Shown here piece by piece: positions 640 through 19,900 of a stretch of 64,000 bases of DNA. Within the stretch, counting starts at the first letter, position 1. The number at the start of each line of letters is the position of its first letter. A model generated the notes under the pieces. It was not told where the DNA came from and made no database searches. It saw nothing but the letters and a program-made list of their open reading frames with translations. Source of the DNA: Podarcis liolepis (taxonomy: Eukaryota). The translations under genes were made by a program, and so were the position numbers. The DNA lies in assembly GCA_965112155.1 (NCBI GenBank), contig OZ218100.1, one strand, 5' to 3'.

Positions 640-1702
640 CACTGATTCACTCAGTATTATTTTATTCACTGGTCAACAGTATGGAATTCTTGTTGAAGGC
701 ATGAATGGTGCATTGTGCCTTATGACGTGCAAAAATTGATATACTGAAGGAATCCAATGATTGCATGAAATGTGATGGAGAAATGGGAAAAAATAAGGGT
801 TGTTCTGAAAGTAATGATCTGAATCTTTCAAATCATGTACGATGTAAAGTTGACACAGAACACACACCTCCATGGGATATAAGGAATACAGTAGCAACAA
901 AGAGAAGGGACAAGCTTTATTTCATAATTTCCCCCCCTTTTTTTCTGCAAGCAAAACTGCTTTGATATAAAATGAGTCCAATGATACAGTGCTATCATCC
1001 ACTCAAGCAAAAGAAAACCTCACGCTGACGTGAATGCAGATTATACTGGCATTCTGATACAAGTGTAATAATTCTAGATTCCAGATGGTGTCTGGCCTTT
1101 AAAGCAATGGCACAGAAAATGCTGCAAAATATTGGAGTACTGTACTGAAGTACTGGCAAGTGCTCTTTAAGTAACTCTCTCTGTGAATTCTCTGTAGGAT
1201 AATGTTTGATTAACTGCAGTATGAACTGTGTCTTCTGGTTCTTAGTATCCCTGCCACATGCCTCTTCGAGTCCACTGTGTTAGTTCAAAATGCATAATGT
1301 TGACTGTTGTCTTTTTCATTTGTATTAAGACAAAGTTATGAGGTATCCTTTACTGTTAATCTAATGATGAAGTGACAGGCCTTGTTGACTTAGGACGCAA
1401 AGACAATTGTACATTCAGTAATTGCTTTTAGTGATCTCTCTACACATTACTGCAAACAACTGTTAGTTACATTGGAAAAAAAACTTTCTCCTTTTCACAT
1501 ATGATATGGCATAAACGAAACAAAATTTGACAAAAATCATACACATAAAATAAACAAGACAAATACACAAATAAGGCCATCTGCAAAATTAAAAATCCAA
1601 CTCTCGTAATATTTCACAATAATTTCTACAGAATATTTTACATCTTAAAAACTTAAATATTTAATGCACAGGAAAAAGGTGGTCTTGACAGAGCCAACCA
1701 CA
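640..1702 (-). other. DST: DST 3'UTR (about 1.05 kb, 3' end approximate)
   Basis: AU-rich, repeat-free stretch after the stop codon, bounded by AATAAA at 661-666; cleavage site inferred. Confidence 0.65.
661..666 (-). terminator. Probable distal polyadenylation signal AATAAA
   Basis: + strand tttatt at 661-666; another AATAAA at 916-921 and ATTAAA at 1660-1665. Confidence 0.55.
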
Positions 1703-1968
1703 CTATCTCTTGGAGGACTTGTCTAATTTGCTGGCCGGCGACTTTCTTTGTGGAGTTGGAATTTTGGAAGGTTTTCCAGATGCTGAGCGAGAATTGGGTC
1801 GGGGTGTTGGCCTAATTGGGGTATGAACAGTCTCCGATACATCCGAGCACACAGACTGAATTTCTGAAATGTCAAAATCAGATGCGTCACTGCCCCGGCG
1901 GCTGCTTGCTCTGCTGCCAGCCTTGCTTCCTGCTCGACTTCCAGGTCTGCTTGGTGTTTTTCTGGTGT
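1703..1968 (-). CDS. DST: DST last coding exon: GSR repeats, SKIP (SxIP EB-binding) motif, stop TAG
   Basis: cag|AC ACC AGA ...; [21 protein letters not shown]; PSKIPTP; TAG at 1703-1705. Confidence 0.96.
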
Positions 1969-4900
1969 CTGTATGAGGAGGAGAAATACACCCATTGCAA
2001 TTAGAGTGAGAAGGGATAACGAAGGCTGATTCTGTCCTGGCATCATCAAGAGCTTCATGGTGCTCCATTATGGGCAGCCAGAAGTCTACTCAAGCGAGTG
2101 CTGCTCTTTCATTACAAACCAGAGGATAAAGCTAACCGTGGCTACTAGTCATGGCAGCTTCTATCTCCGAAGACTAGTGGTTGGGTTTCACTGGTAAGGA
2201 GGCTGCTGCTACACTCACATCCTGATTGTGGGCTTCCCAGCCTGATTGGCCATCGTGAAAACATGATGCTGGACTGGATGGACCTTTTGTTACATTCAGC
2301 AGGGATGTTCTGGATGCTACCCACTGGGCACATCAAGTATGCCCTGTTTCAATCCTACATGGGTACACCAGAGCCCCTCTGTTATGCGCAGCCGGTGGAT
2401 ACAAGTCAGAGCAATCTACTGTTTTCAATGCCAATATTTCCCCTTTAAAGTGCTTTGCATCACAAGTGGAACTTTTCACTCTAGCTCCTTCTGCTCTGGT
2501 ATCATGAAACTCACAAGTTAGACATGATATCAATATGCAGTTCCAATTTTACATCCCAGCTTCAGTGAACCAGAATTTCATCAGGACCAAGGCCTTGATT
2601 CAAAGCAGGATCTGCCACATTTCAGCCTCCCAAAGAAGCAGATCCCACGCAATGTGTGTACATGCAGTAGTCTACCTTTTACTCTGTGTATTAGGTACTA
2701 GCCTCCCAGAGACATTTATTCCAAGCTCTCCAGTGCTCACCTGCAAAATGTGCCCTGACTCTTGTAGCTGCTGTTGAAATGAGGCTGCTGTCTTCTCCAG
2801 AATGGAAACCCTTCCCAGACAGATATCCTGGCAATCTAAGTTTACTCCCTTGTATTGGAGTCCCCTGTAGGACACAAGGAGAACTGAATGAAACAAACCC
2901 ATTATGTTCTGCATCAAACAAGAGCTGATTTTAGGACTCCATCCATATCACCTTCTTCGGAACATGCATGGCAAAGAAAAAGCTATTCCAAAAAGTGATG
3001 ACATAGGAATATTTAGTTAATGAGTTGGAAAGGGAACCAAATGGTAATAATATCTAGTATGTAAAGCACTTTACCTGTCACTGTATCTCTTCCTTCCCTC
3101 CCTCAATGTTTCCCAGTTACCAATTTTTAGTTTATAAGCTTCTTGAGAGCAAGAACCTGGTTTTGCTTACATAACTTGGTAAGGTGCTTTGTACACTGAT
3201 GACATTGTATAAATGAACATACAAACAAACAAACAAACAAACAAAAAGAATGGCTTTTTATATTTACATGTCAAGATGTAATATACCTGCCAACTTAGGA
3301 TCACACTTCATGTATCTGATGAAGTCAACTCTAAACTACAAAATCATGAGTTTACTCTATGACAAGATATTTTGCTGTTTTTTCTGCAACAATGTGTAAC
3401 ATGCCTATGCTTCTGAAAAATGCATCAGTGTGTGGCTAGTCTGAAGGATCACTGTGTAGTCATCAAGGCAATATGGAATTAATTCTGACCAGGGAGGACA
3501 ATTAAATTGCTGTGCTGACACTTCTTTGGTTTGCTAGTAATAGCTAAATGCAAATAGGAAGTTTACACTGAGGCTATGCTATCTGCTGAAGTATGGAGAA
3601 AAAGAAAGCATAATATTAGAAACTGTCAGCAATTCATATTCTGTATTGTATTTTAAATCCTGTGGATATTTAGGAGTAATAATTCTATACATGTAATAAA
3701 TGTATTTTATGGGAAGGATAGCTAAGTAGGTGTTTCGCTACCTAGTAAGCAAAGCCATACAAAAATCTCAGGTTAGTTGTAGGAAAAGCTGGAGGGAAAG
3801 TAGCAGAAGTGGTAGCCGCCACAATCAAGAGCAGTAATAACACATTCTTCTCAGCGCTAACCATTGATGTACTGCATACTCTAATATAATTTTGTATTAT
3901 GTGAGAAGACAGCAGTATTATGTCAGCAGGAGGCAGTCTACTGATTTAATCTTTGGCTCCTTAATCAATAGTAGACTCTTTCAATCTTTTATGTATTTCA
4001 GTTCTCAATATTCCCTTGTTCTAAACAAGCAAGGCTATCAACCATTTCCCTATGAGAACTGAGAAATTATAGCTTGGGTTGTTTCCCCAGGGTTGGCACT
4101 TAAAGATACTTCAGATCCTAAATATTTTGGTGGCTGCCACCTACCCAGTGTTCCACAATCACCAGATAATTAATCTTAATGCACTTTTGTACCATGAGGG
4201 TACGAAGTAAGGCATTCTTGGCGGCTCCTTGAGATATATGGAACTTCTTTCTTTTGGAGGACTGAGCCAGACGCACTGTAAGATATTTTTATTTTCACTC
4301 GTTTTTAATGGTCAGGGTAAAGCAGATATGGGATAGTTGCAATGCAATCTCACAAATTTACAGTGGTGCCCCGCAAGACGAATGCCTCGCAAGACGAAAA
4401 ACTCGCTAGACGAAAGGGTTTTGCGGTTTTTGAGCTGCTTCGCAAGACGAATTTTCCTATGGGCTTGCTTCGCAAGACGAAAACGTCTTGCGTTTTTTGC
4501 AAGTTTGTTTCCTTTTTCTTAACACCGTTAATACAGTTGCGACTTGACTTCGAGGAGCAACTCATAGAACGTGGTGTGGTAGCCTTTTTTGAGGTTTTTG
4601 GCGATTTTTGAAGCTTTTCCAAAACTTTTCCGACACCGTGCTTCGCAAGACGAAAAATTCGCTAGATGAAAAAACTCGCGGAACGAATTAATTTCGTCTT
4701 GCGAGGCACCACTGTATCTAGGTTTCCTAAGCATAGTATTTATAATTTCTATTTTAATGCCATTTCTTGCTCTGAGCTGTTGGGATGGGATGGGATGGGC
4801 TAGAAACTAAACTCAGGCCCTAGTTCAGACGGAATAGAAAGTGTTTTAGTTTATTGATTTTGGTGTGCTTAGCTCTGAGAGGCCTAAGTAATAAATGGGG

Positions 4901-7900
4901 TCAAACAGAGCCAGAACACCAATGACATACTATTAGGTAAAATAATATTGGACTGACTTACTGTTAGTGGAGGAATCTGAAACTTCTTGCATTTCACATA
5001 ACTTTTCATTAGGCAGAATGGTACTGCACCAGGATCTCATATTTATCTAACTGCTTATCTAGAGCAAACTAGATGATTTCAGTTATAAATATCTTAGACT
5101 CCACATGTACAGAGCTGATTCCTAGTTTGACCATGGTTATATAGAATTTAAAACATGCTCATCAAGACCCAAACAAACTCAAATGACTGATCAATTTATA
5201 GATTTAAAAAGAGAGAAAGTAAAATTGATGGATAGAAGATTGAAAACAAACAGAGTGCATTAATATGTAAGGAAGGTACAGCACAGCTGGGCAAGGAACT
5301 GTAGTGAATGTTAGCTAACAGGATAGTTTTAGTGAATGTTAGACTAGAATATCCATCCATTACTGTACCTCTGTGGATGACACTTGATATTCAGAGCACT
5401 CTGGAGGTTTACAAGGAGATGATGTTTTGCTGTTTATCAACCATGGTTTACCATAGTTGCGTGTTAAATGATGGGGTGTCTGTATGGAACAATGGCAAAT
5501 CACAAGGGTGAAGAACAGGCGATGGAAAACAATGTCATGGAGAGGAATATTCAGATTATGAATACTGAATCTCACAGTAAAAGTCAAAAACAAAATGACA
5601 CCAAAACAAAGCAGGAACAGTTGACAAGCATTCTATACAAAAGAGAATGTATGTGTGCTTTTTAAAATGCAATGGTGGGTTAATGGTTTTTTCATTTTCA
5701 CTCCCACTTTTCTAATTAGCTTACATGTTTTTTCCCAGGCTTGCACGACCGCTGCGATTGTAAGGGAGGAAACGATAAAAAACTTTTGTTAGCTTTCTTT
5801 GAAAAATAAAATAACCAATATCTCCCCTATTTGTTTTAGGGTAGCATTATTGCGAACTGTAGCAAGCTTGGCCTGATTTTATTAACTGCATTAAATTTCA
5901 GCTGCACCACTCCAGTCATACCTTGGGTGTGCTGGCCGCAAGAGCTGATGTTGGAGCTCCTTGAGCAGGTGGATTTGACACAGACATGGATCTGTTGGGT
6001 GAAGCACCCCTTGAAGAAGGTCGTGATCTGCGTCCCCTTTGTCGGAAGGCAGCCATGCTTTGGCTAGCTCCGTCTGCCAAAATGAATTTCTCACGTAGCT
6101 CCATGTTCGTCCTCCCTTTAGCTAGAGGATGCGAAAGAGAGAAATCGAAAAGTCTGATTATTTCCCCAGCTGCCTGTCCATATCGCTGGCTTTGCTAGAG
6201 CTAAACAAACAGGCCAAACAATTCAAACACATTAGTGAGTAATGCATTTGTTTGAGACAAAAAAGTTCATTTGCAGAATATGCGCATCTAACATTTTATG
6301 CTAGCAAAAGATGAACTGCGCATCTAACATTTTATGCTAGCAGAGATGAACTGCTGTCAACATAAATCAGCATGATAATGGAATGGCTCAACATGCTATT
6401 TGGTTACCAATGCACAGACTCAACCTGAAGACCCATTTGACTAATGCTACCACTGTTTGGATGATTCAGAAACAGATGCTGGCTATGATGAGTAAACATG
6501 GAGAGAAAAGCATAAAACCATATTAGTTCTAAGCTATATAGTAATGCAGTTGGGCAACATGCAATGACAAACAGAAACTCCCAAACTGTAAAGAAGTGAT
6601 GGGATGCTGGGCACAGACAAACGCAGGTATAGAGGCAAAGGTGAGAACTTCCCACAAGGTTCAGATGCGTAAACAGGTTAGCATTTGGTTTTCTCTGTCT
6701 TAATGGCAATTGCTTTTGAAACACTCTTTTCGAGCGTGTCAAAGGAAATTTAGAAGCAAGCTCTCAAGCACCAGCCAGTGCAATAAGTGTTAAGGCTAAA
6801 AAATGTGAAACGTGAAGCGTTGTGTTAAATATATATTTGTATATATCAAAGCAGAGTGGGTAGGAAATGGAAAAGAACATTAAGAACAGGAGAGACAAAG
6901 AGAGGGGTTTGCCAACCTATAGTAGGCTGAGTGGTAATTGAAGAGTTTGATTCCGAACGTAACATTTTACTCCCATGATGATGAACTAGAAAAAATGACA
7001 CAGGATATGGGTCATATTAAAAGAAAATTGTTAGCAGGAGAAGAAATCAATTACAGCAGTTGCATATGCAAGAAGATTCAAAGCTGCAGGCCAAGGACAG
7101 ATCTTAAGTGATTAAAAGTTCTCGCTAAGTGTAGGAACATGGAGCAAGGTCATGGAGTTTTCTTCAGCAAAAGAAACCACTCTTGGTGTAAGCTCAGCTG
7201 CAGACAGTCCCAATGTCATCATGTAGGTAAAAAAAGAAAGCAAGTGGTTTCTTTGCCATCTTCAAAAAGGGATGTTCTATCTTCATACTTCTTAAGGTTG
7301 CATGAAAGGAGGACACAACATACCACACAGTGCTTTAATAGAATGAAACCTAGTCACCATTAAGACACCCAACAGGTTTGCATATGATTTACAGTTTCCA
7401 CATAAGAGCTAGTGTTTCCATGGCAGATTTGATGAAGAATGTAATCTTACGTTCCATCCTTTTGAGACAGGTTTATCTCTGAAATTATGTTGCCCTTTGA
7501 AAGGGATTTTGTGGGTAAAGCACCCCACAAATGGAAAACAAACAACAACAAAAATTCAGATTCAGTAATACTGAAAATCACAAATGAACTTTCCTTGCTG
7601 AAAATCTGTTTCAGAAAAAAAAATAATCTCTCCATATTGACGCAATTTACACATAACGCTAAACCATGGTTTATGTTAGTGATGAGCTGTAGTGAGCTCT
7701 GGACTTCTCCCCTGCCTTGTCCTCCTTTGGTGTGGCCGTGAGAAAGGATAAGAAGCTTCTGCTTCCACTTTAAGTAACTACAGTTTTGCATGGTGTCCAA
7801 ACCTAGATGTCCAAATTAACTTTAACTATGGTTTATTGAAACAAGTCATCTTCTTAAACTATGGTCTGAAGTTGGCTTGTTTAAATAAGTGGTTAAGATT

Positions 7901-10900
7901 AAACACATTTTGTCCAGATCCAGATGATAAAAAGCTGTGGTTAATTTAAAACAGAAGTTAATGCTTCCTTGTAGTTTGTGCTGGAGGAGGAATGGAAAGG
8001 CATAAACTACAGTAGCAGCCATCACATTAAATATAATAGTTTTTGGAAATTCAGAGATCTTCCATATTTGTATACACTGGTGTTGAAGAACCTAATTCCT
8101 GTAATGGGAAGCTTGGTGATAATCAGCTGGAGATACCAACTGTTGTTGTTTTTTAAAAGCAGCAACAATAAATATGTCAAATCAAGTACTGTTCACCTGA
8201 CTTAGGTGGAACATGGGTGGATTGTAGGCATCTCACAATGTAGGAATAATATAGCACATCTAATATGTTTTTATAGGAGTCAATTATATTCAGTCAGAAT
8301 GCTACATTCCACTTTCGTCCTGTTAAGATTCTTCAGAGTAGAGTATGAGATGGGATGATGGAATCAGGTGGATTATCAATGCAGGCTGTGTAACGATCTC
8401 ATTTATTCCTGTACAGCAGGAATGTAAAATGTGACTCAAGCATAACGTAATTAAAACAGAATTGAAGCAAGTTTTCCACCAGAGGCACAGTTCCCTCTTT
8501 TTCTCAACACTACAGGTAACATCCAGTCATATGATCGTTTACTAAACAGCAGGAATTTTAAGTTGTAGTTTCAATTGTATCTGATAAAATGGTGGCTGGA
8601 TAAGTAAGCATTAGCCTGATTAAGGAAAAAGAAATATATATCCCTAAGAAGCATGTATACCACTACAATGTTTACTTTTCAGTCTGAACTTGCAGCATTA
8701 CGTATAGAATTCACAGTTTTAACTACAGAGAAAAATAATCTAATATATGCCCAATAATGTTTTCTGTAGCTACTTTTCATTTTTGAGAAACAGAACACTA
8801 CGTTCACCACCCCATTTTAACATTCCTTTGTACATTCACAACATAAAACTGGGTGATGCCCTTTATATTATTCCCTCTGGGATTAGCAAGTAGTCGCTAC
8901 TTTACTTACCATTTCCACTGAACTTCTGGAATTTTGCCCCCCAAAGTGATTGCTTCACTTCACCTCTTGGTGAGCCTAAAACCCAACCAATCCCATGCCT
9001 ACTGCATTCTATCAACACACACAGCAGGCAGACCTAGGACCCAGAAATGATTTCAACTAAACCCAGGCTACCTTCTTCTGTGAATCAGGTTTTAGGCTTA
9101 TAAGGCTGTTAAGATGCCACAGTGAAATCTGCTTACAAATCTGGGCGCAATTGCTTAGAATCCTTGGAAGATCTAGGCCACAAACCAGTGAGCCATCAGC
9201 TGTTCACCATGAGCCAGGCTACATGTTACACTCACCATAAGAGTGGTCCCACCACACTTTCTGCTCTTCCCCCCTCCCAACTCTGAGGAAAAATTAGCTA
9301 ACAAGAGAGAAAAGGGGAGATAACCAATGGACAGGGAAGGGAAGCCAGCACTTCCTCCTTTCCTGTATGTGTGGTTTCTGTGTTCCTGACAGCTTCTCAT
9401 TCTGTTGGTGTGTGAGAGCCAAAGAAATTCCTTGCATGTCAAGCTCTCACATGGTGAATGCAATGCATAGCCAGAGTATACAGCAGAGCTTTCCAAACTT
9501 TTCATGTTGGTGACACACTTTTTAAACATGCATCATTTCGGGACAGTAATTCAGTTTTGCATCATTTCATGACACAGTAATTCAGTTTTACTAGCAAACC
9601 AGAGATTAAACTAACCCCTTTCCAGCTCTGGGAGGGGCATGGGGAGCGTTTGTGTGACACACATAAGCACTGCAGCCAACACATTAACGTGTCGCGACAC
9701 AGAGTTTGGAAAGCTCTGGTCTACAGTATCTTCAGTAGGTAGTCCTTAAAAATAGCAAGATGTATATAAGTAGGGCATCGTAAGTGAATCAGTGTTTAAC
9801 TAAACCAGGGATTTATACAGTTTACATTTCATCCTTCTAACCTCTACTACCTTAGTTAATCCATGACAGCAGTTGTATATACACTATTAATGGGTTTAAT
9901 AGTCATATGTAAAGAAGTCTTCCTACATACCTCTGCAAGGATCATTTTTCACTAAGAACTCATCAAGTGCCATCCATCCGCCTCCAACTCGAACCATAAC
10001 AGTGCTCCGCAGAATGCGGACAAGACGGAGTTGCTGGGAGTCACCAAACTGTGCAGGAAGACAGGAAATCAAGCTCAAGGTTTCCTACAAGTTCTAAACA
10101 GCACGGTGCGCTCCAAGCCAAGAGGGTTAAAATTAGCCACGCACAATAAGCTCCTAAATCATTAGTAGAAAAATCACCAAAGAGTTTTGCATTATGCATA
10201 TGGTAAAGGTTGTTTTCAAGTTGAATGCAACTGCATTAACCCAAAAGGTAGCAATGAGATTGGTGGGGGAGGGGAGGGAGGCAGAGCACAAGGGTATAAT
10301 GCGGCTAGGTTTGATTGCCCCCCCCCCCTTGATTCTTGAGAGCCACATGGATGTTTCTCAGATCTTTTCAAAGGAGAAAAATTAGTCATGTAATACATGA
10401 AGCTACTTGGAATTGTACTGTCAATACTAAAACCTTCACTGATCTCTCCTTGAAAAAATGATAAGAATATTCCCACCGAAATATGGATTAGAACTCATTA
10501 TGAGGACACAGTGCACATATTACAGTGATGACCGCTGAATAAGTCAGAAAAACAGACGTTTATTGTTATTTCATAATTTCTTTTTCACCCTCTTGCCTTC
10601 TGGAAAGCTGCCCCTTAGAATAGCCACTAAGGGCATTTCTAGGCAAGTGTTGTATCATGTAACAAATAGAATTTTTGTGAGGGTTCCAGTTATCTTTCTT
10701 CAGGGATGCCCTTCTTCCAAGGGTGCTATTTTTTTTAGCATTTTGTGACCATTCTCCCACACATTATGTGTATTTCTATAGCCAGTGTGAGAAGTAAGAA
10801 TAAGCTGGATTAGGGCAATGGCCCATCTAGGCCGTCCTGTTCTTACATAGCCATCATGGCTAGCAGCCTTAAATAGCCCTCTCCTCCATGAATTTGTCCA

Positions 10901-13900
10901 ATCCTCTTTTAAATCCATCTAGGTTGGTAAACTATCGCTGCCTCCTGTGGGAGTAAGTTCCACAGTTTATGAGCTGCATGAAGAAGTAACTTTCTTTTAT
11001 CAGCCCTGAATCTTCCAACATTCAGCCTCATTGGATTGCCAAGGGTTTGAGTGTCATAAATTAGGTAGCTATTGACCCATTAGTGGCATGTCTCCACTTT
11101 TCTAGTAAATGTTTTTACTGTCTATTTTATTCTTTTAAGTTTCATTTTTCTTACTTCGTTAGATGCTGGCTGGACTCCATTATACTACCCCAACACGCAG
11201 CATTTTAAAGTAAACCAAATAACTGGCCAGCACCAGCAAGACTATCCTCTGAACTCAAAGTAATAATGCTGCAATTCTGTGAATACTTTATATTTGTAAA
11301 AAAAACAAAACCTTTAAAAAAAACAACAACTTGAAGGCTGCAGACTCCCCCTCCCCAATGCTAGAGCTCACATCTCCTTCCAGAAGGATAGTCTTCCCAA
11401 TTTTAATGAGGTGGTAATTTTCAGTTGCAAATACACAGCTTCACTAGCACAAGTATCAGTTTAGAGTTGGGAGGGGGGGAACCAAACAAAAAACCCCTCG
11501 CATGGTGGGGGCAGGAGCTGGCATCCTCCAAGGGTCTAAGGCAGTGGTGAAGAACCTTTTAGACACTGAGTGCCCAAACTGCAACCCAAAACCCACTTAT
11601 TTATCACAAAGTGGGATAATAATGATTGTCTGCATGCACACATACAAATAAGTATAAATAAACCCAGCCAGATGGATGGGGTATTATTATTATTATTATT
11701 ATTTGCTCTTTTTTGTTACTGGCAACCCAGCAGCCGCAGCACTTATGTGTGTTGTGAAGCAGGCCGTTAGGCAGAGCGCTCTCAGGATACTTTCCCTGCA
11801 TGTGGGTGTGTGGGTGTGTATAGATGTCTGTCTGTTTCTCTCTCTCTCTGTGGCCCCTTTGGCGCTTCTCTCCTGAGCATCGGAGAACAAGAGAGAAGCA
11901 GAGAGGGAACAGAGAGACAGACAGAGGACTCAGCGTGGGACTCGGGGAAACCCGCAGCTGGCAAGCGACTGACCCATTCACCAGGGAAGCTGGAGTCGCT
12001 ATGTTGGGTTGGGGCTTGGGTGGGCAGGAAGGAGAACTGAGGCTCATTGGCTTTGCAGCGTGCAGGCAGCAAGGTCTCCTGTTGTGAGGTGTCTTCAAGG
12101 AGCAGCTCGCCTCCACCCCTTCACTTCTCCCAGCCCCTCTTCATGACATTCACTCCTTCTGCACCTTGCCCACCCTCTCACTGGCTCTCCCTCTTCCCCA
12201 CCTGGTCTGCGCTCTCCAGAACAGGAGAAAGAGCAACCTCCTTCTGAATTCAAAAAAAGGAGGAGGGAAAAGCAGGGAAATCAGGCTTATGCAAAAGCCA
12301 GGCAGAAGCATCCCGATGTGGCACGTTGCAAAGCTGCCCCCTCTTCCGTGTGTTTTGCTTTGCACAAGGGTGGACCAGCGTAGCGCTCCCCTCCCTGGCA
12401 TGGGAGGGCAGGCTCCTTCTCCACCCCCACCCCGCTCTGCATCTTGGATCTTGAAAACAGCAGCACAGCCCGAGCCTGCTGTTTGTCCTCAAGGGTAAGA
12501 GACAGACCCTTCTGTTAATTGATGGCTAGCTGAGCTGCCGCTCCCCGCCAAAATAAAAAATAAAAATCCAAACCTGCTTCGGATCCAAACCCACACCATC
12601 ACAACCCACTGTCTCCATGCTTCCTTACCCAGCGTCCTGTCTGAAATTGCAGCATGGGGGGGGGAGCTGGCTGGCTAGCACACAACTCTCCCCCATGCTA
12701 CTGTGGGCAGCGTGCACTCAGGGAGCGTTTCCTGCCCACATTTGCGGGGGGGGGGGGCTGCACATCCGCCAACCAACTGGTTGGCGTCATGCAACTCCCC
12801 TGATGCTGCTGAGGGCGGCATGCACCTTAGGGAGCATTTCCCACCCGCATTGGCATGGGGGGAGCGGCTGTCCCTTTGCCAACCCCCAGTAACAGCCCTG
12901 CATGCCATCTTGCGCGTGTGCCATCAGAGAGGGTTCTGAGTGCCCACTCTGGCACGCATGCCATAGGTTCGCCACCACTGGTCTAAGGAGAACAAGTGTG
13001 CAAAATTGTACTTCTGCTGTACTTTGTCAAAAGCAAAGTTTTAGGAAGTACATAAATGCTGGTCCTTCAATTTAGTGATTTGGAAATGCTGCAAAATCCC
13101 TTAGGCCTCTTATAGCCTGTCCACATGTTCTTATGCAAGTAGTTTGAAAGCATAGCTCCGCTCTTTGAATGTACCATGCATTCCAGACATACTTCCTTTT
13201 AACACATATTTCCTCTCTCCATATTAGTTTTATAACTGGTTTTGGTTTTAAAGCATTAATGTGCCAGTTATGCAGAAATCACCTGAAAAGGAATGCTCAA
13301 ACAACATTCTTTCCAAATGTTCACCGCACACACCACACACCAAGAAAAACAACCGATTCCCCTCCCAAATATCCTGGAGCCTTAGCAAAATTTGTTGGTG
13401 ATCGAAAGGACTCATTACACTCTGTTGCTTCGTATATTAGTACACATGGTGAAAATCTCTGCACCATTATAGCATAATTTTCAGGCTCATTCAAGTGGCT
13501 TAAAGCCTACTTCTCCCAATCCATGAATGTAAACACATGTTTGCATTTGGGGCAACACGTTTAGCCTTAATCTGAGATATGAATGAGCCTTCTGGCAGTG
13601 CGCACAGACTCTTTCCTCTTTAACATACTGCAATAAGCCAATAAGTCTTCAATTAACCATAATTTCCTGTTATGTCCAAAATGGGAAACTATGGTTAACA
13701 ATGTTCAGAACAACCCAGGATCTTAAACCATGGTCTGAAGCTGGTTTAAGATCCTAGCTTGTTCTGAACATTGCAGCCATAGCTTCCCAGTTCAGATGTA
13801 GTGGGAAAGTACAGTATGTTTAATTGAAGGCTTATTGCAGCATGCAGAGAAGAGAGGAGGGAAGAGCAATGCAAGGACAGAGTGTGTGGGCAACAAGGCT

Positions 13901-16900
13901 CATGCATACTTTGGTTCAAGATGCTGATATAGAATGATCTGAGCCAGGCCGATAGGGAACTAAAATATAGTATAAGGATGGCCACCTGAGTTTCTCCTTC
14001 ACTCTTTATATGCACATTTCAAATCTCCTTTCCATGACATTAGTGTCAAATCACTAATACATAAAGTGTCTCCAATAATTCCAGTGGAAGCCTTACACTA
14101 CCATTGCAAAACGCTATGAATCATAGCTAATGTTGTCAGACTGTAACTGAGAGACCTGGCTCAGGTGGCAGTAAGGTTTCCATCAGCAGAATGAGGAGAA
14201 AAGCAGGTTTGGGATATTTCCCCCTTCCCCACTGCAGACCCCCCACAGTCTCACTAAATCCGCCATGGAGGGTCCAACCCTGTGTAGCAGATTTAAAGGA
14301 GGGTTAGCTGCAGGGGGAAGGGGGAAATATCCCAAACCTGCTTCTCTCCTCATTTACATTCCCCACTGTAATAGGAATGTGTTCTGCTCTTTTCTTTTCC
14401 TGCCATTGTGATTCACCCCAAACTGCTGCACAGCACACCTGCAGGTCTGACCATTACAGCAAGTGGAGGAAGGGAAGGACAACAGGACCAGGGGAAAAAG
14501 GGCGGGACAAGCCATGGCTGCCTCACTTCTAACTGTACTGTGCAATCTGAAAAGTGCACTAGCAGACTGCAGGGTTACAACCTTTAAATCCCAACCAATG
14601 CAAAAGACCTCACTCTTCCATATTATCAGTCCAACTCATCCAAATCTCTTGTCCACCTCCAACTGATCCTCCATTACAGGTAGGATCTCAGAGCCACCCT
14701 GTTCCCTGGGAGCAAAAAATAGTCCCGAGGCATTCAGCGCTTCTTAGCTCGGATTACTGTGATATGTAAGACCAGATTCTTCATGTGGGTACCTATGGGG
14801 AGTTCTTCCCAAAGATCACACTAGAATAAAATGCCAGATTTCATCCTTGGAAAGAAGCTATGGTAATCACTACTTGTTTTACAGCCAAACCATGTAACTG
14901 AGTTTAATTTTTCATGTACCTTACTGAGACACAGCTTAAGCAAAGGGAGAAAGGCATGTTACTTTTGGGAACCAAACAAGAAGAAAGCATATAAAGTTAA
15001 TAAATCAAAAATACCCAAAGTAATTAGTGGCTGAAGATTTTCTTTCTTTCTTTTTTTCCTCACAAGATTTTATGCTGCATCAACTGTATTTTCTGATGGT
15101 CCTTTTTTTGTGGGGGGGATGTGCTCCACTGTATATGGCAGCTCCTGACTAAGTCTGGGGAGATTTCCCTTTGAGCCAATAAAACCTGGGAGATTGTTTT
15201 GGGAAACCCCTTCTGTCATCATTCTGATATTTTGGGGCGCTTACCATTCCCCCCCTTTCTTCTTTCTCCGAGCCCATTTAGGTAATTAACTTCTACTACT
15301 GTTGTGCCAAATGATCCCTAATCTCAGGTGTCACTCTGCTGTGGTCAGGAGTAAGCAACCTGCCCCAGTCCCCCAACTCCCATTTGGAAGTGGAACATTT
15401 CTCTCCCCATTTTCCAGACTGCACAATGCTTCAACATTGCCACTTGCAGCTCCAGTGCTTCCTGTCTCATTCATTTAATGGTGCTGGGGCAAAGCCACAC
15501 TCACCCTCCTGAAGGAAGCAAGAGAACAAACCCCCTTCACTTTATCTTCTAGGAAATCAAGAACATCGTATCATGAAAAAGGGAGTGGCTTTAGAATTGG
15601 GAGCAAAGTGGGCTAAACAAAGGCAAAAGTTAAGATTATATAATGTATTAGCATGGATGGCATGAGAAGGAAAATTTAGCTTATTGTACTCATGTCAGAG
15701 TAGGTGAAACTTTAAATCACAAATGGGATTTTTTTACACTGCATAATGTTGAGTAATCTCATTCTAAAAACCTATATAATCTTCCTTTACTATTAGGTTT
15801 CACAGGGAATAGATTCTAAGAAAGGATGATACAGCAGAACCTCGGTTTTTGAACATAATCCGTTCCAGAAGAACGTCCAACATCCGAAACGTTCGATAAC
15901 CAAAACCTGAACCCTCAATACAATAGAGAAACTCAAAACGGAAGCCGCGAAGTATGTTCAGCTTCCGAAAATTGTTCGAAAACCGGAGCAGTTACTTCCA
16001 GGTTTTCGGCGTTCGGAAGCCGAAACGTATGACAACGGAGGCATTCAACAACCGAGGTTCCACTGTACTAACTTCTAAGAAGCAAGAAGAATGAAGGACT
16101 GCACATGAAACAAAACAGAAATAGGCAGTCTTTACCTGGGATGCAGTCTGCATGGTGCCCAATTTGCAGTGATGGTTTTTATGGAAATGCAATTTCCCTA
16201 TTCAATTTCTAATTGAATGTCCTTTTTTGTTTTTGGCAAAAGCTTTAAAAAGTGCAAGGTCCTGGATCATCTTACAGTGGAATGCAGCATGGAAATTTAA
16301 AGGATACTCCATATATGAATCACAGCAAAATCTTAACAGCAATTCCAGTGTGTAAACCACAGGAAGAATGCCCAAAGGCATTTGCACTACCAATTAATGC
16401 AGTCTATTATCTGGTTCCCTTAAAAGTAATCTCATTAATGAGGCAGCAGCAGGCAAAAAAGGCAATTCCCAAAACAAGGAAACCAGTTAAGCATTTCCAG
16501 AGAGGCATCGTAGCTGACCAACAATGAATTAGCTTAGGGTGAAAGGGTAGGGGAGGACAAACCACTGCAAGCTGAAATGATGATGTATTAAAAGAATACT
16601 AGGAACTCCGTAACACATTCCACTGTTTATACCTGATTTCCCAGGAAGAACTGACAAGAGATGGAAAATGGGAGAAAGACATAATTAGTGTAACAGGAAA
16701 TCCTCTAGAACACACTCTAACAGCACATACACATTCTACATCTTCCAATTTAGTATGTAGCTTAGAGATGTGCCGATAACATCAGCTGTCTGGGCTGTTA
16801 ATGCTGTCAGACCTGACTCCTATGACACCTATCTATTGCTTGCTGCATAATCTGATTTCCTTCCGCCAAATTCTCAATGGAAAATGATATTGCTGAATTG

Positions 16901-19900
16901 AAATGAAAGAAGGGGATGACAATTTGGTAGATCCCCCCTTGATATCTACTTGCTGGTTTTTCTGGCACATTTTCTATCTAGAAAAAGGAAAGCATGCTTC
17001 AATGAAATCAAAATCAAACAAAAAGAAAAGACAGGATGGTGATGACAGAGTACAACTTTATTCAAATATGTTTGGAAGGCTAATACACTCCCAACTGTTT
17101 GCTCTGTTGGGAAAATAATAATAATTCTAATTCAGAAGTTAATGAATGTTCCACTATAAAACCTTGAAACCTGTAGGTATAACTCGGTGCACGCATGGAA
17201 TATTTGTAACAGGCATTAAGCTCTATTACTTGGAAGTTTCATCAAAACCCAGGCTCCTTTGGAAAGTTATTTACAATTCCAATGCAAGAAAAGATTTATT
17301 GTGACTTCGGTGGTATAATAGTAGCTTTTCTTCTTCTTCAATCACAAGCTAAAAGATCAGATGGGGTGATTAAAGAACAGCTGTGGTGCATGAGGTGGGG
17401 TCCTGCCACTGCGGCACTCTGTTGGCTGCAGTGGTGCTGCCACTTGCTGGGGATGCAATGGGGAGCCAGAGAAGAGATGAGGGCAGGAGACCACTGGGTT
17501 GACAGCAGTGGTGGCCACAGGGGCACATGCATCTGCGCCTACCACAACTACTCTGCTGCCACCTCACCCCAGAGAACGATAGCACCTGCAGCCAAGAGGG
17601 TGGCACAACAGCAGCATCTCACTTCATGCACTGTGGCTGGTGAAAAATGCAATAGGGTCCAAAATGATGATGATGATGATGTTGTTTTAAAAAAGAGAAA
17701 ATACCTCAAATTCACACTGTATTATTAATTTAGTTAAATTACTCCTTTGCAGAACAGGGGAGTCTAAATCCAACAGATAACATGACTGTTTTCTATACTT
17801 ACTCTGTACTTGTTATCACCAATCTGCTCCACTTGGAATCGCTTTGCGCATTTACATTTTGCTACCTGCCTTGTCACCTGTCAAAACGACAATCAGAAGC
17901 AAATTATATTAATTGCCATTTATGGTAAGTTGTGGAATCAGGTCAAGAAAACAATGGGACTACAGTGGTACCTCGGTTTACGAACTTAATCTGTTGCTGA
18001 AGTCTGTTCTTAAACCAAATCCGTTCTTAAACTGAGGTGCGCTTTCCTTAATGAGGCCTCCCGCTGCCAGTGCCCTTCCACTGTTTGGCTTCCATTTGTA
18101 GACTGAGGTAAAGTTCACAAACCGGAACACTACTTCTGGTTTTGCAGAGGTTGTAAACTGAATAGTTCATAAACAGGGCTGTTCGTAAACCGAGGTACCA
18201 CTGTATAAGTTCAACATGCAATTCCAGAGAAAGATACTTTAAGAAAGAGGCTGAGGGGCGGGGAGAGGGGAGGGAGAAGAGCACCTCATCTTCAATTTTG
18301 TCGGCATCTGTCAGAGGCTTGTATGCATCTTTGTTCGGATGAAGTGCTGCTACAAACTCGTAGTAGTCAATATAGCCATCACCATCTCTGTCAAAGATAT
18401 CCGCTACTGCACTCATTTCCAATCGACTAGTAGGAAATTCTGCAGATGAAAAGAACAGTTCAAGTTAAAATGAACAACTCTTACCAATAACCTTTCGGGA
18501 AACTGACTTACTAGCATTCCAAAACTCTGAGGAATTAAATTTAATATGCAAATGATCGAACTTTGCTTCAAAACTTACTTGAAGAAAGAATCCCATCAAT
18601 AAATTCCTGTCTGGTTATCTTTCCATCCTGATCTTTATCGATCCTCCTAAAGAAGTCCATGACTCGAGATTTCTTATGGTTCATCCAACGCATATACTTC
18701 TTCCGCCAAATATCAAAATCAAAGTTGGCAAATTCTTTCAGCTTGAGACAAAAGGAAAAATGGGAAAAAAGAGGTGAACTGTCTTGTGAGAAATACATAT
18801 AATCGTGATGCTAAAGTTCAGAGCAGATGTTAATGTGCAAAGTGTAAGTCAACCTTAGGAACCTTTCCCTTGCCCTTCCCAAAACCCTGTTCCCTTTTTT
18901 TGAAACTAAAGTATGAAGGGGGCTTACAAATCCTTAATTATCACTATGATCACCATTCAAGTAACTCTAAACCATGGCAAACTCTGACAAGGAAAGTGGT
19001 GAATTTGTTCTGAAGGGAGTACAGGGAAAGCGGAAGGAGCATACATCCCAATATTATGTCTACACAACACCAATGGCACTCCATGCTGATGTCTGCTTAT
19101 GTGATATATCTCCATCACAAAAAAGCAAGGGAGAAATTAACATAATTAATGTAAATTGCTTTAAATATAATTAATGTAAATCACTTTGAATTACCTTTGC
19201 AATAAAAGTGAATAATTATAATGATGCACAAGCAGGGCTTTCACATAATTGGGTGTTGGTACGCACTGACCAGCGCATAAGCTACTTCTGCCTGTCAGAG
19301 GAAGGGTATATGCCTGGTCCTCCACCACACGAAGAGGAGTGGCCAATAAGACATGAGCTAAGGCTTAGTTATAGCAAACACATCTGTTGTTTACTGACCT
19401 CCTCTAATCGGTCTAAAGCATCATTAAGTTTCCTTCTTCTTTCCAGAGCCAGAAGCCAGACTTGCTGCCATTTGCTGACCAAGAGGTTCACCCGTGGATT
19501 CTTGGTTTCAATCTGAGCCTGTGCACCTGAGGGGTACATGCTTGGTGTTGGGGAACGCTTTCCTGTTAAAATACAGGAAAATGTACTGTACTTCTGCTTC
19601 TCAAGGCAATGCAAACAAAAGGTAGCATAGCATACATGCTTGTTTCTATAGGAAGAAGGGAGAGGCCTAACATGCCTGTGATTCCAGGCGCCATCTAACA
19701 GAAGGGTAGGTTTGGCTTTAGGGCCACAGCTTCCTGACCCTGTAGACAATCCTGTCCACTTCATAAATCAGAAATAGTAAGTTAAATTCTGACAGCTTTT
19801 AAATAATCAGTTAATGACTAAAGGCAATGATATATGTGATACCACATTATATATAAATGTGAGATCATTACTTACTTCCTCCTCTTCCTTTATCCAGTAC

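What the first reader, a model, noticed from the sequence alone, without database searches (positions are those of the whole stretch)
4962..16977. Possible combinatorial micro-exon 'dial' on the DST microtubule-binding tail
Seen: the five introns between the GAR N-half exon and the penultimate exon contain three frame-preserving exons whose peptides I recall from DST (18, 69, 111 nt). They also contain several further short AG...GT/GC units whose length and phase fit the host intron (24, 12, 66, 27, 15 nt) and a 4-nt frameshifting unit. I did not notice comparable units in the spectrin-rod introns, but that scan was by eye and less thorough. Known: GAR binds microtubules, GSR/SxIP bundle them and bind EB1, and spectraplakin microexons are tissue-regulated. 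Inference: the tail may be tuned by a larger, partly unannotated set of cassette exons.
Basis: partly seen in the sequence, partly recalled or inferred. Interest (0 to 1): 0.7.

Follow-up and report, generated by a model that had tools for sequence, protein, structure and literature searches.

The report
Fourth cassette microexon in lizard dystonin
The microtubule-binding tail of the lizard dystonin gene has three old, optional exons and a 27-base, positively charged fourth one that is likely real and would strengthen microtubule binding, while the other five proposed mini-exons are likely chance look-alikes.

Summary
This is the 3' end of a lacertid lizard DST gene (minus strand). The 18-, 69- and 111-nt cassette exons are real. 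They are included and skipped from fish to primates and are shared with MACF1. The 111-nt exon was spliced both ways in a relative's RNA. Two were likely already published (mouse exons alpha/beta; no functional difference found).

One of the six proposed extra units holds up. The 27-nt unit at 5751-5725 (RSCKPGKKH) matches, 8 of 9 residues and at both ends, an insert in 10 of 21 Komodo dragon DST isoform models. It was in 0 of 31 lacertid models, and no junction to it was listed among 15 skipping reads.

The other five have no support. The 24- and 4-nt units are not conserved in one other vertebrate locus. The 12-nt unit lies in a transposon. The 15-nt unit has a very poor acceptor. The 66-nt unit is in no protein.

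Such units are about as dense in rod introns at loose thresholds. Real exon-scale variation is confined to the tail. Verdict: likely four cassette exons, not nine; tuning of microtubule binding is untested.

The parts
17803..17877 (-). Constitutive exon, GAR N-half (75 nt)
16633..16650 (-). 18-nt cassette microexon (FFLGNQ) inside the GAR domain
   Evidence: Included 236 / skipped 23 of 259 squamate models. Paralogous exon in MACF1. Flanks conserved in L019. Absent from solved GAR chains 5X57 and 5VE9.
9931..10048 (-). Constitutive exon, GAR C-half (118 nt)
6917..6985 (-). 69-nt cassette exon (likely published exon alpha)
   Evidence: Included 157 / skipped 102 of 259. MACF1 paralogue. Identity with alpha inferred from text of PMC4171495.
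5922..6121 (-). Constitutive basic Arg/Ser-rich linker exon (200 nt)
5725..5751 (-). 27-nt microexon, RSCKPGKKH, net charge +4; likely real, rarely included
   Evidence: 8/9 identical to a 9-aa insert at the same junction in 10 of 21 Komodo models. Only match above 5/9 among about 128,000 six-frame 9-mers of the window. CTAAC at -41, pyrimidine tract, CAG acceptor, GTAAGC donor. 0 of 31 lacertid models; no joint listed in RNA.
5369..5479 (-). 111-nt cassette exon (published exon beta, by position)
   Evidence: RNA joints for inclusion and skipping in two raw runs and one contig set. MACF1 paralogue. PMC4171495.
2741..2864 (-). Penultimate exon (124 nt)
1706..1968 (-). Coding part of last exon: GSR repeats and SKIP (SxIP) motif
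16954..16977 (-). 24-nt AG..GC unit; likely pseudo-exon
   Evidence: No alignment to the orthologous intron of L019 (score 21, shuffled mean 19.7). Peptide in none of 533 proteins. Not covered by RNA.
15505..15508 (-). 4-nt AG..GT unit with strong sites; likely pseudo-exon
   Evidence: Between two conserved anchors yet unmatched in L019 (score 19, shuffled 19.5). Not covered by RNA; a frameshifting exon would not show in protein models.
12629..12640 (-). 12-nt unit inside a dispersed hAT-like element (11542-12980); likely pseudo-exon
   Evidence: Multi-copy hits. Terminal inverted repeats and 8-bp flanking duplication; the one family copy aligned lacks the donor GT.
8910..8975 (-).
   Evidence: Strong donor, weak G-rich acceptor. 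Peptide in none of 533 proteins. Not covered by RNA or L019.
4962..4976 (-). 15-nt unit; likely pseudo-exon
   Evidence: Acceptor score -7.9, below all 33 constitutive acceptors; AGs at -8 and -11. 17 reads skip it and none are listed using it.

Best explanation
The DST tail has three ancient cassette exons (18, 69, 111 nt) and likely a fourth, rarely included 27-nt microexon shared with the Komodo dragon, while the other five units are likely background splice-site look-alikes. Shown: the exons' positions and frames, inclusion and skipping of the three in protein models, RNA joints for the 111-nt exon, and the 8/9 match of the 27-nt unit to a Komodo insert at the same junction. Inferred: the 27-nt exon is spliced just ahead of the 111-nt exon in some tissue of this lizard. 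It adds four basic charges in nine residues to a disordered tail of net +25, which would modestly raise electrostatic binding to microtubules. The 69- and 111-nt exons (net +1 each, Ser/Thr-rich) would act mainly as spacers or phosphorylation sites. The 18-nt exon would lengthen the hairpin just before the tubulin-contacting strand of GAR. The predicted result is fine adjustment of affinity, not an on/off switch.
For: Three cassettes: models; MACF1; RNA; paper. 27-nt exon; exon-scale variation limited to four tail sites. Against the other five. Charge values. Basic tails bind microtubules and phosphorylation of the GSR region releases MACF1 (passages of PMC3137072; PMC8012552). GAR binds tubulin through beta3-beta4-beta5-alpha2 (passages of PMC12084551).
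Against: The 27-nt insert was seen in one species' annotation only: 10 of 259 parsed squamate models, all Komodo, one annotation run. It was in 0 of 31 lacertid models and in none of the anole, gecko, snake, Elgaria, Rhineura or Pogona models seen. Komodo DNA and reads were not seen; that such models rest on RNA junctions is recalled. In a relative's RNA, 15 reads skipped it and no joint to it was listed (threshold 3 reads, 8 joint rows hidden, tissue unknown). No MACF1 counterpart. All four mouse alpha/beta tails bundled microtubules and bound EB1/EB3 alike. The 24-, 4-, 12- and 66-nt units were not tested with RNA, and their conservation test rests on one locus.
Confidence: 0.66

Rival explanations
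1. The 27-nt exon is used in monitor lizards but is silent or vestigial in lacertids; its sequence persists because the intron before the 111-nt exon is under regulatory constraint.
For: 0 of 31 lacertid models; 15 skipping reads and no listed joint; flanks of the 18-nt exon stay about 65% identical over about 500 nt in L019, so intronic constraint near cassettes is real.
Against: Both splice dinucleotides, a consensus branch point and an open frame sit exactly at the ends of the Komodo peptide. Only 15 of 103 members of the main lacertid cluster could be listed. RNA depth was low.
Confidence: 0.2
2. The Komodo insert is splicing noise or a gene-model artefact at a conserved intronic site, and the tail has only the three known cassettes.
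For: One species of about 25 squamates seen; one annotation; not found among the 14 hits of the profile-free representative search.
Against: Noise would rarely give an in-frame 9-mer 8/9 identical across distant lizard families with matching ends.
Confidence: 0.09
3. One reading: most or all six extra units are real regulated exons, giving a large combinatorial dial with a 4-nt frameshift switch.
For: One unit proved likely real. Strict-threshold excess of short units in the tail (nominal p 0.024-0.036 in 5 of 24 settings). Fish DST has its own extra 39-aa insert after the 18-nt exon in 6 of 116 proteins. Microexons are often missed by annotation (recalled).
Against: No peptide of the other in-frame units in 533 proteins. 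No conservation for the 24- and 4-nt units. The 12-nt unit is in a transposon. The 15-nt unit has a failing acceptor and 17 skipping reads.
Confidence: 0.05

Closest known systems
Mouse Dst/Macf1 C-tail exons alpha and beta (Poliakova et al. 2014, PMC4171495)
   Same: [quoted passage not shown]
   Different: The parts read describe two exons and four variants, not the 18-nt exon inside GAR or a 27-nt exon. Figure 2 and Fig. S1 (images) were not seen, so alpha = 69 nt is inferred.
Komodo dragon RefSeq dystonin isoform models (e.g. XP_044277477.1, X1)
   Same: Nine-residue insert RSCKMGKKH at the same junction, always with the 18-, 69- and 111-nt exons (10 of 21).
   Different: One substitution (M/P); predicted models only; absent from the 31 lacertid models seen.
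Vertebrate regulated microexons (3-27 nt; neural SRRM4 class, recalled)
   Same: Length, frame preservation, cytoskeletal host gene, branch point at about -40; conserved flanks shown for the 18-nt exon.
   Different: No UGC within 25 nt of the acceptor of the 18- or 27-nt exon; tissue specificity unknown; the 27-nt exon has no sign outside squamates.
Solved ACF7/MACF1 GAR domains (PDB 5X57, 5VE9) and the GAS2 GAR-microtubule complex
   Same: Same domain; near-identical sequence to DST GAR.
   Different: Both solved MACF1 chains lack the six-residue insert, which is present in most squamate models seen.

Membership tests
Dystonin (DST) spectraplakin gene | Spectrin repeats, EF-hands, GAR, GSR repeats, SxIP in one frame; closer to DST than to MACF1 | tested here: met
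   MACF1 lies elsewhere, on C7
Cassette exon (18, 69, 111 nt) | Inclusion and skipping forms both exist | tested here: met
   Protein models for all three; RNA joints for the 111-nt exon only
Cassette exon (18, 69, 111 nt) | Deep conservation | tested here: met
   Fish to primates and MACF1 paralogues
Conserved microexon (27-nt unit) | Frame-preserving, canonical sites, branch point and pyrimidine tract | tested here: met
Conserved microexon (27-nt unit) | Orthologous exon in another species | tested here: met
   Komodo models, 8/9 identical, same ends; protein level only
Conserved microexon (27-nt unit) | Spliced in this lineage | tested here: inconclusive
   15 skipping reads, no joint listed, low depth, hidden rows; 0 of 31 lacertid models
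Conserved microexon (27-nt unit) | Tissue-regulated inclusion | not testable with these tools
   Tissues of the runs are not given
SRRM4-type neural microexon (18 and 27 nt) | UGC close to the 3' splice site (motif recalled) | tested here: not met
   0 TGC in -25..-3 for both
Conserved microexon (24-, 4-nt units) | Conserved unit or flanks | tested here: not met
   One vertebrate locus, L019; squamate-only conservation not tested
Conserved microexon (24-, 12-, 66-, 15-nt units) | Peptide in any isoform model | tested here: not met
   0 of 533 proteins; no other exon-scale insert in 247 squamate proteins
Conserved microexon (24-, 4-, 12-, 66-nt units) | Junction reads | not tested
   The RNA lay covered window 1650-6900 only

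The most novel reading that the evidence does not exclude
The spectraplakin tail keeps recruiting lineage-specific cassettes on top of three ancient ones: a 39-aa insert within GAR in fishes and a basic 27-nt microexon in lizards. The lizard exon is switched on together with exon beta in one tissue as a charge dial that raises dystonin's microtubule affinity, and hidden counterparts may sit at the same place in other amniotes.
Probability: 0.25. Interest if true: 0.6.

Novelty: new member of a known kind. Interest (0 to 1): 0.37.

Why it matters
DST and MACF1 tail defects underlie neuropathy and brain malformation, and the tail's isoforms have no assigned function. The finding gives one concrete, small, testable addition: a basic nine-residue microexon not found in my paper searches. 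It also points out that the common GAR form with the six-residue insert has no solved structure among the PDB hits. It does not support a large hidden exon code.

Tried and rejected
AlphaFold models of EF-GAR-tail with and without the six-residue insert: mean pLDDT 45.8 and 46.7, GAR mostly under 55, so not used.

Run search: no holder on record as RNA among 20; no evidence either way.

Metagenome pattern scan for the 18-nt exon: 44 loci. One was a tetrapod-like DST locus (L019), one had a spectraplakin exon layout (L014; L028 shares its flank), and the rest showed no exon similarity. More of L019's record was not available.

Viral-contig scan with a 17-nt pattern from the 27-nt unit: 6 loci, not examined further, taken as chance.

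Representative search with an 83-aa Komodo stretch: 14 hits, none with the insert among the 12 read or already tallied; two long hits were not read.

A second 27-nt AG..GC unit at 6200-6174 was rejected: it would leave a 52-nt intron. A resemblance of the shifted 24-nt frame to a salmon MACF1 insert (3 of 7 residues) was dropped: one protein, nothing similar seen in lizard MACF1.

A 15-nt unit at 14934-14920 beside a conserved intronic block was rejected: the AG..GT pair is not kept in L019.

Paper searches for the cassette peptides found 0 papers. Listings showed only PMC4171495 on these exons. Earlier scan notes: none.
Full report
**Setting.** The window lies on contig C3 of a 1.57-Gb genome and holds the 3' end of DST on the minus strand. 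Exons were placed with tblastn and splice dinucleotides. They splice to a stop-free 1,859-aa frame. With the three cassettes the protein is 99.2-99.8% identical to 7 lacertid DST proteins and 95-96% to two other squamates.

**The three recalled cassettes are real.** Among 203 DST-type proteins of the first 304 fetched, each was found both included and skipped, from fish to primates. In a squamate set, 259 of 268 proteins spanned all junctions. The 18-nt exon was in 236 and out in 23; the 69-nt exon was in 157 and out in 102; the 111-nt slot was empty in 26. These are predicted models, not independent transcripts. The lizard's MACF1 has counterparts of all three; a third paralogue on C8 shows none.

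**RNA.** About 12% of two raw runs and two contig sets from a close relative were laid on 1650-6900. Joints were: 200-nt exon to 111-nt exon, 1 and 6 reads; 111-nt exon to penultimate, 4 and 5; direct skip, 7 and 1. Run X7 had contigs for both forms (depth 38.5 and 32.3); X4 had none. Inclusion differed between the raw runs (Fisher p 0.027). Tissues are unknown.

**Literature on these exons.** PMC4171495 (passages and first part of Results read; supplements and figures not seen) describes tail exons alpha and beta in mouse Dst and Macf1. All four variants bundled microtubules and bound EB1/EB3.

**Background.** Splice models came from the 33 constitutive donors and acceptors, plus a recalled consensus table. 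Frame-fitting units were counted in 13.6 kb of tail introns, 36.2 kb of rod introns and 133 kb of upstream DST introns (phase 0 assumed there). Densities match at loose and middle thresholds. At strict thresholds the tail has 4 units against about 1 expected, nominal p < 0.05 in 5 of 24 settings and none after correction. One of the four is the 27-nt exon, and one lies in a transposon.

**The 27-nt unit.** Ten of 21 Komodo dragon DST models carry RSCKMGKKH between the 200-nt and 111-nt exon peptides, always together with the other three cassettes. The window's unit at 5751-5725 reads RSCKPGKKH. It is the only 9-mer above 5/9 in six frames of the window, and its AG and GT fall exactly at the peptide's ends. 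It has CTAAC at -41, like the 18- and 69-nt exons (6 of 33 constitutive acceptors have this). Against it: 0 of 31 lacertid models and no other squamate seen carries it, only 15 of 103 members of the main lacertid cluster were listed, and 15 reads skipped it with no joint listed. The listing threshold was 3 reads and 8 joint rows were hidden, so inclusion up to about 30% is not excluded. Komodo DNA was not seen. I put it as likely real and rarely included.

**The other five units.** A tetrapod-like DST locus from a metagenome (L019) aligns over about 500 nt around the 18-nt exon, but not at the 24- or 4-nt units. The 12-nt unit lies in a 1.4-kb multi-copy element with terminal inverted repeats and an 8-bp flanking duplication; the family copy aligned lacks the donor. 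The 15-nt unit has an acceptor below every constitutive one and was skipped by 17 reads. No peptide of the 24-, 12-, 66- or 15-nt units is in 533 proteins. Across 247 squamate proteins (89 distinct C-terminal sequences), the only exon-scale indels in 1,925 aa are the 6-, 23-, 9- and 37-residue ones in the tail. The 24-, 4-, 12- and 66-nt units had no RNA test.

**Mechanism (inferred).** The lacertid tail after GAR is 256 aa with net charge +25. The cassettes add 0, +1, +4 and +1. A basic tail binds microtubules in a GAS2-like protein, with electrostatics proposed by the authors, and GSK3 phosphorylation of the GSR region releases MACF1 (passages of PMC3137072 and PMC8012552). The 27-nt exon would therefore raise lattice affinity slightly. 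The Ser/Thr-rich 69- and 111-nt exons would change spacing or phosphorylation. Both solved MACF1 GAR chains lack the six-residue insert. By residue offset from the GAS2-microtubule structure (passages of PMC12084551) it falls just before the tubulin-contacting beta3 strand. My structure predictions were too weak to test this.

**Other papers.** Passages of PMC10897606 name a QKI-regulated DST exon 109 without saying which. Passages of PMC11285346, PMC11219738, PMC12262753 and 10.1101/2025.03.21.642423 did not describe these exons. The searches found nothing on a 27-nt exon. The library lacks most subscription papers, and splicing databases could not be consulted.

**Verdict.** A known alternatively spliced tail plus one likely genuine, little-noticed lizard microexon. 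New member of a known kind; interest 0.37.

Noticed in passing
window 14988-14950: Intronic block about 85% identical to L019, 1.7 kb downstream of the 18-nt exon (score 51, shuffled maximum 30). Not a conserved exon; possibly a splicing or enhancer element.
   Followed up: partly
G000:C8 about 293,000-296,000 (L007, L008): A third spectraplakin-like gene with EF-hands and GAR (90% identical GAR C-half), short introns and no sign of the 18- or 69-nt cassettes.
   Followed up: partly
P0057, P0089, P0125, P0130-P0132: Six fish DST proteins carry a conserved extra 39-aa insert after the 18-nt exon, inside the GAR domain.
   Followed up: no
P0153, P0155: Fish MACF1 models with further small inserts: 7 aa before the 18-nt exon in one, and about 11 aa after the alpha-like exon in two.
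   Followed up: no
window 5342-5314: Two CTAAC motifs 27 and 55 nt downstream of the 111-nt exon, resembling QKI sites (motif recalled).
   Followed up: no
P0563: Translated intron of a bird-like contig shows a Leu-Gln then ten mostly basic or polar residues then Val, about 255 nt before the 111-nt exon, near where the lizard microexon sits. DNA not available; may be chance.
   Followed up: partly
window 11542-12980, 4359-4716, 15830-16067, 9479-9723: Inverted-repeat-flanked elements in the tail introns; the first is multi-copy with an 8-bp target duplication, the second draws thousands of reads from elsewhere.
   Followed up: partly
P0110, P0111, P0222, P0225: Garter snake models have the 111-nt exon shortened by five N-terminal residues.
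   Followed up: no
window 16973-16950: The 24-nt unit has a second 24-nt AG..GT register shifted by 4 nt, with a weak donor.
   Followed up: partly
window 6281-6342: A 26-nt exact repeat at 36-nt spacing in the intron before the 200-nt exon.
   Followed up: no
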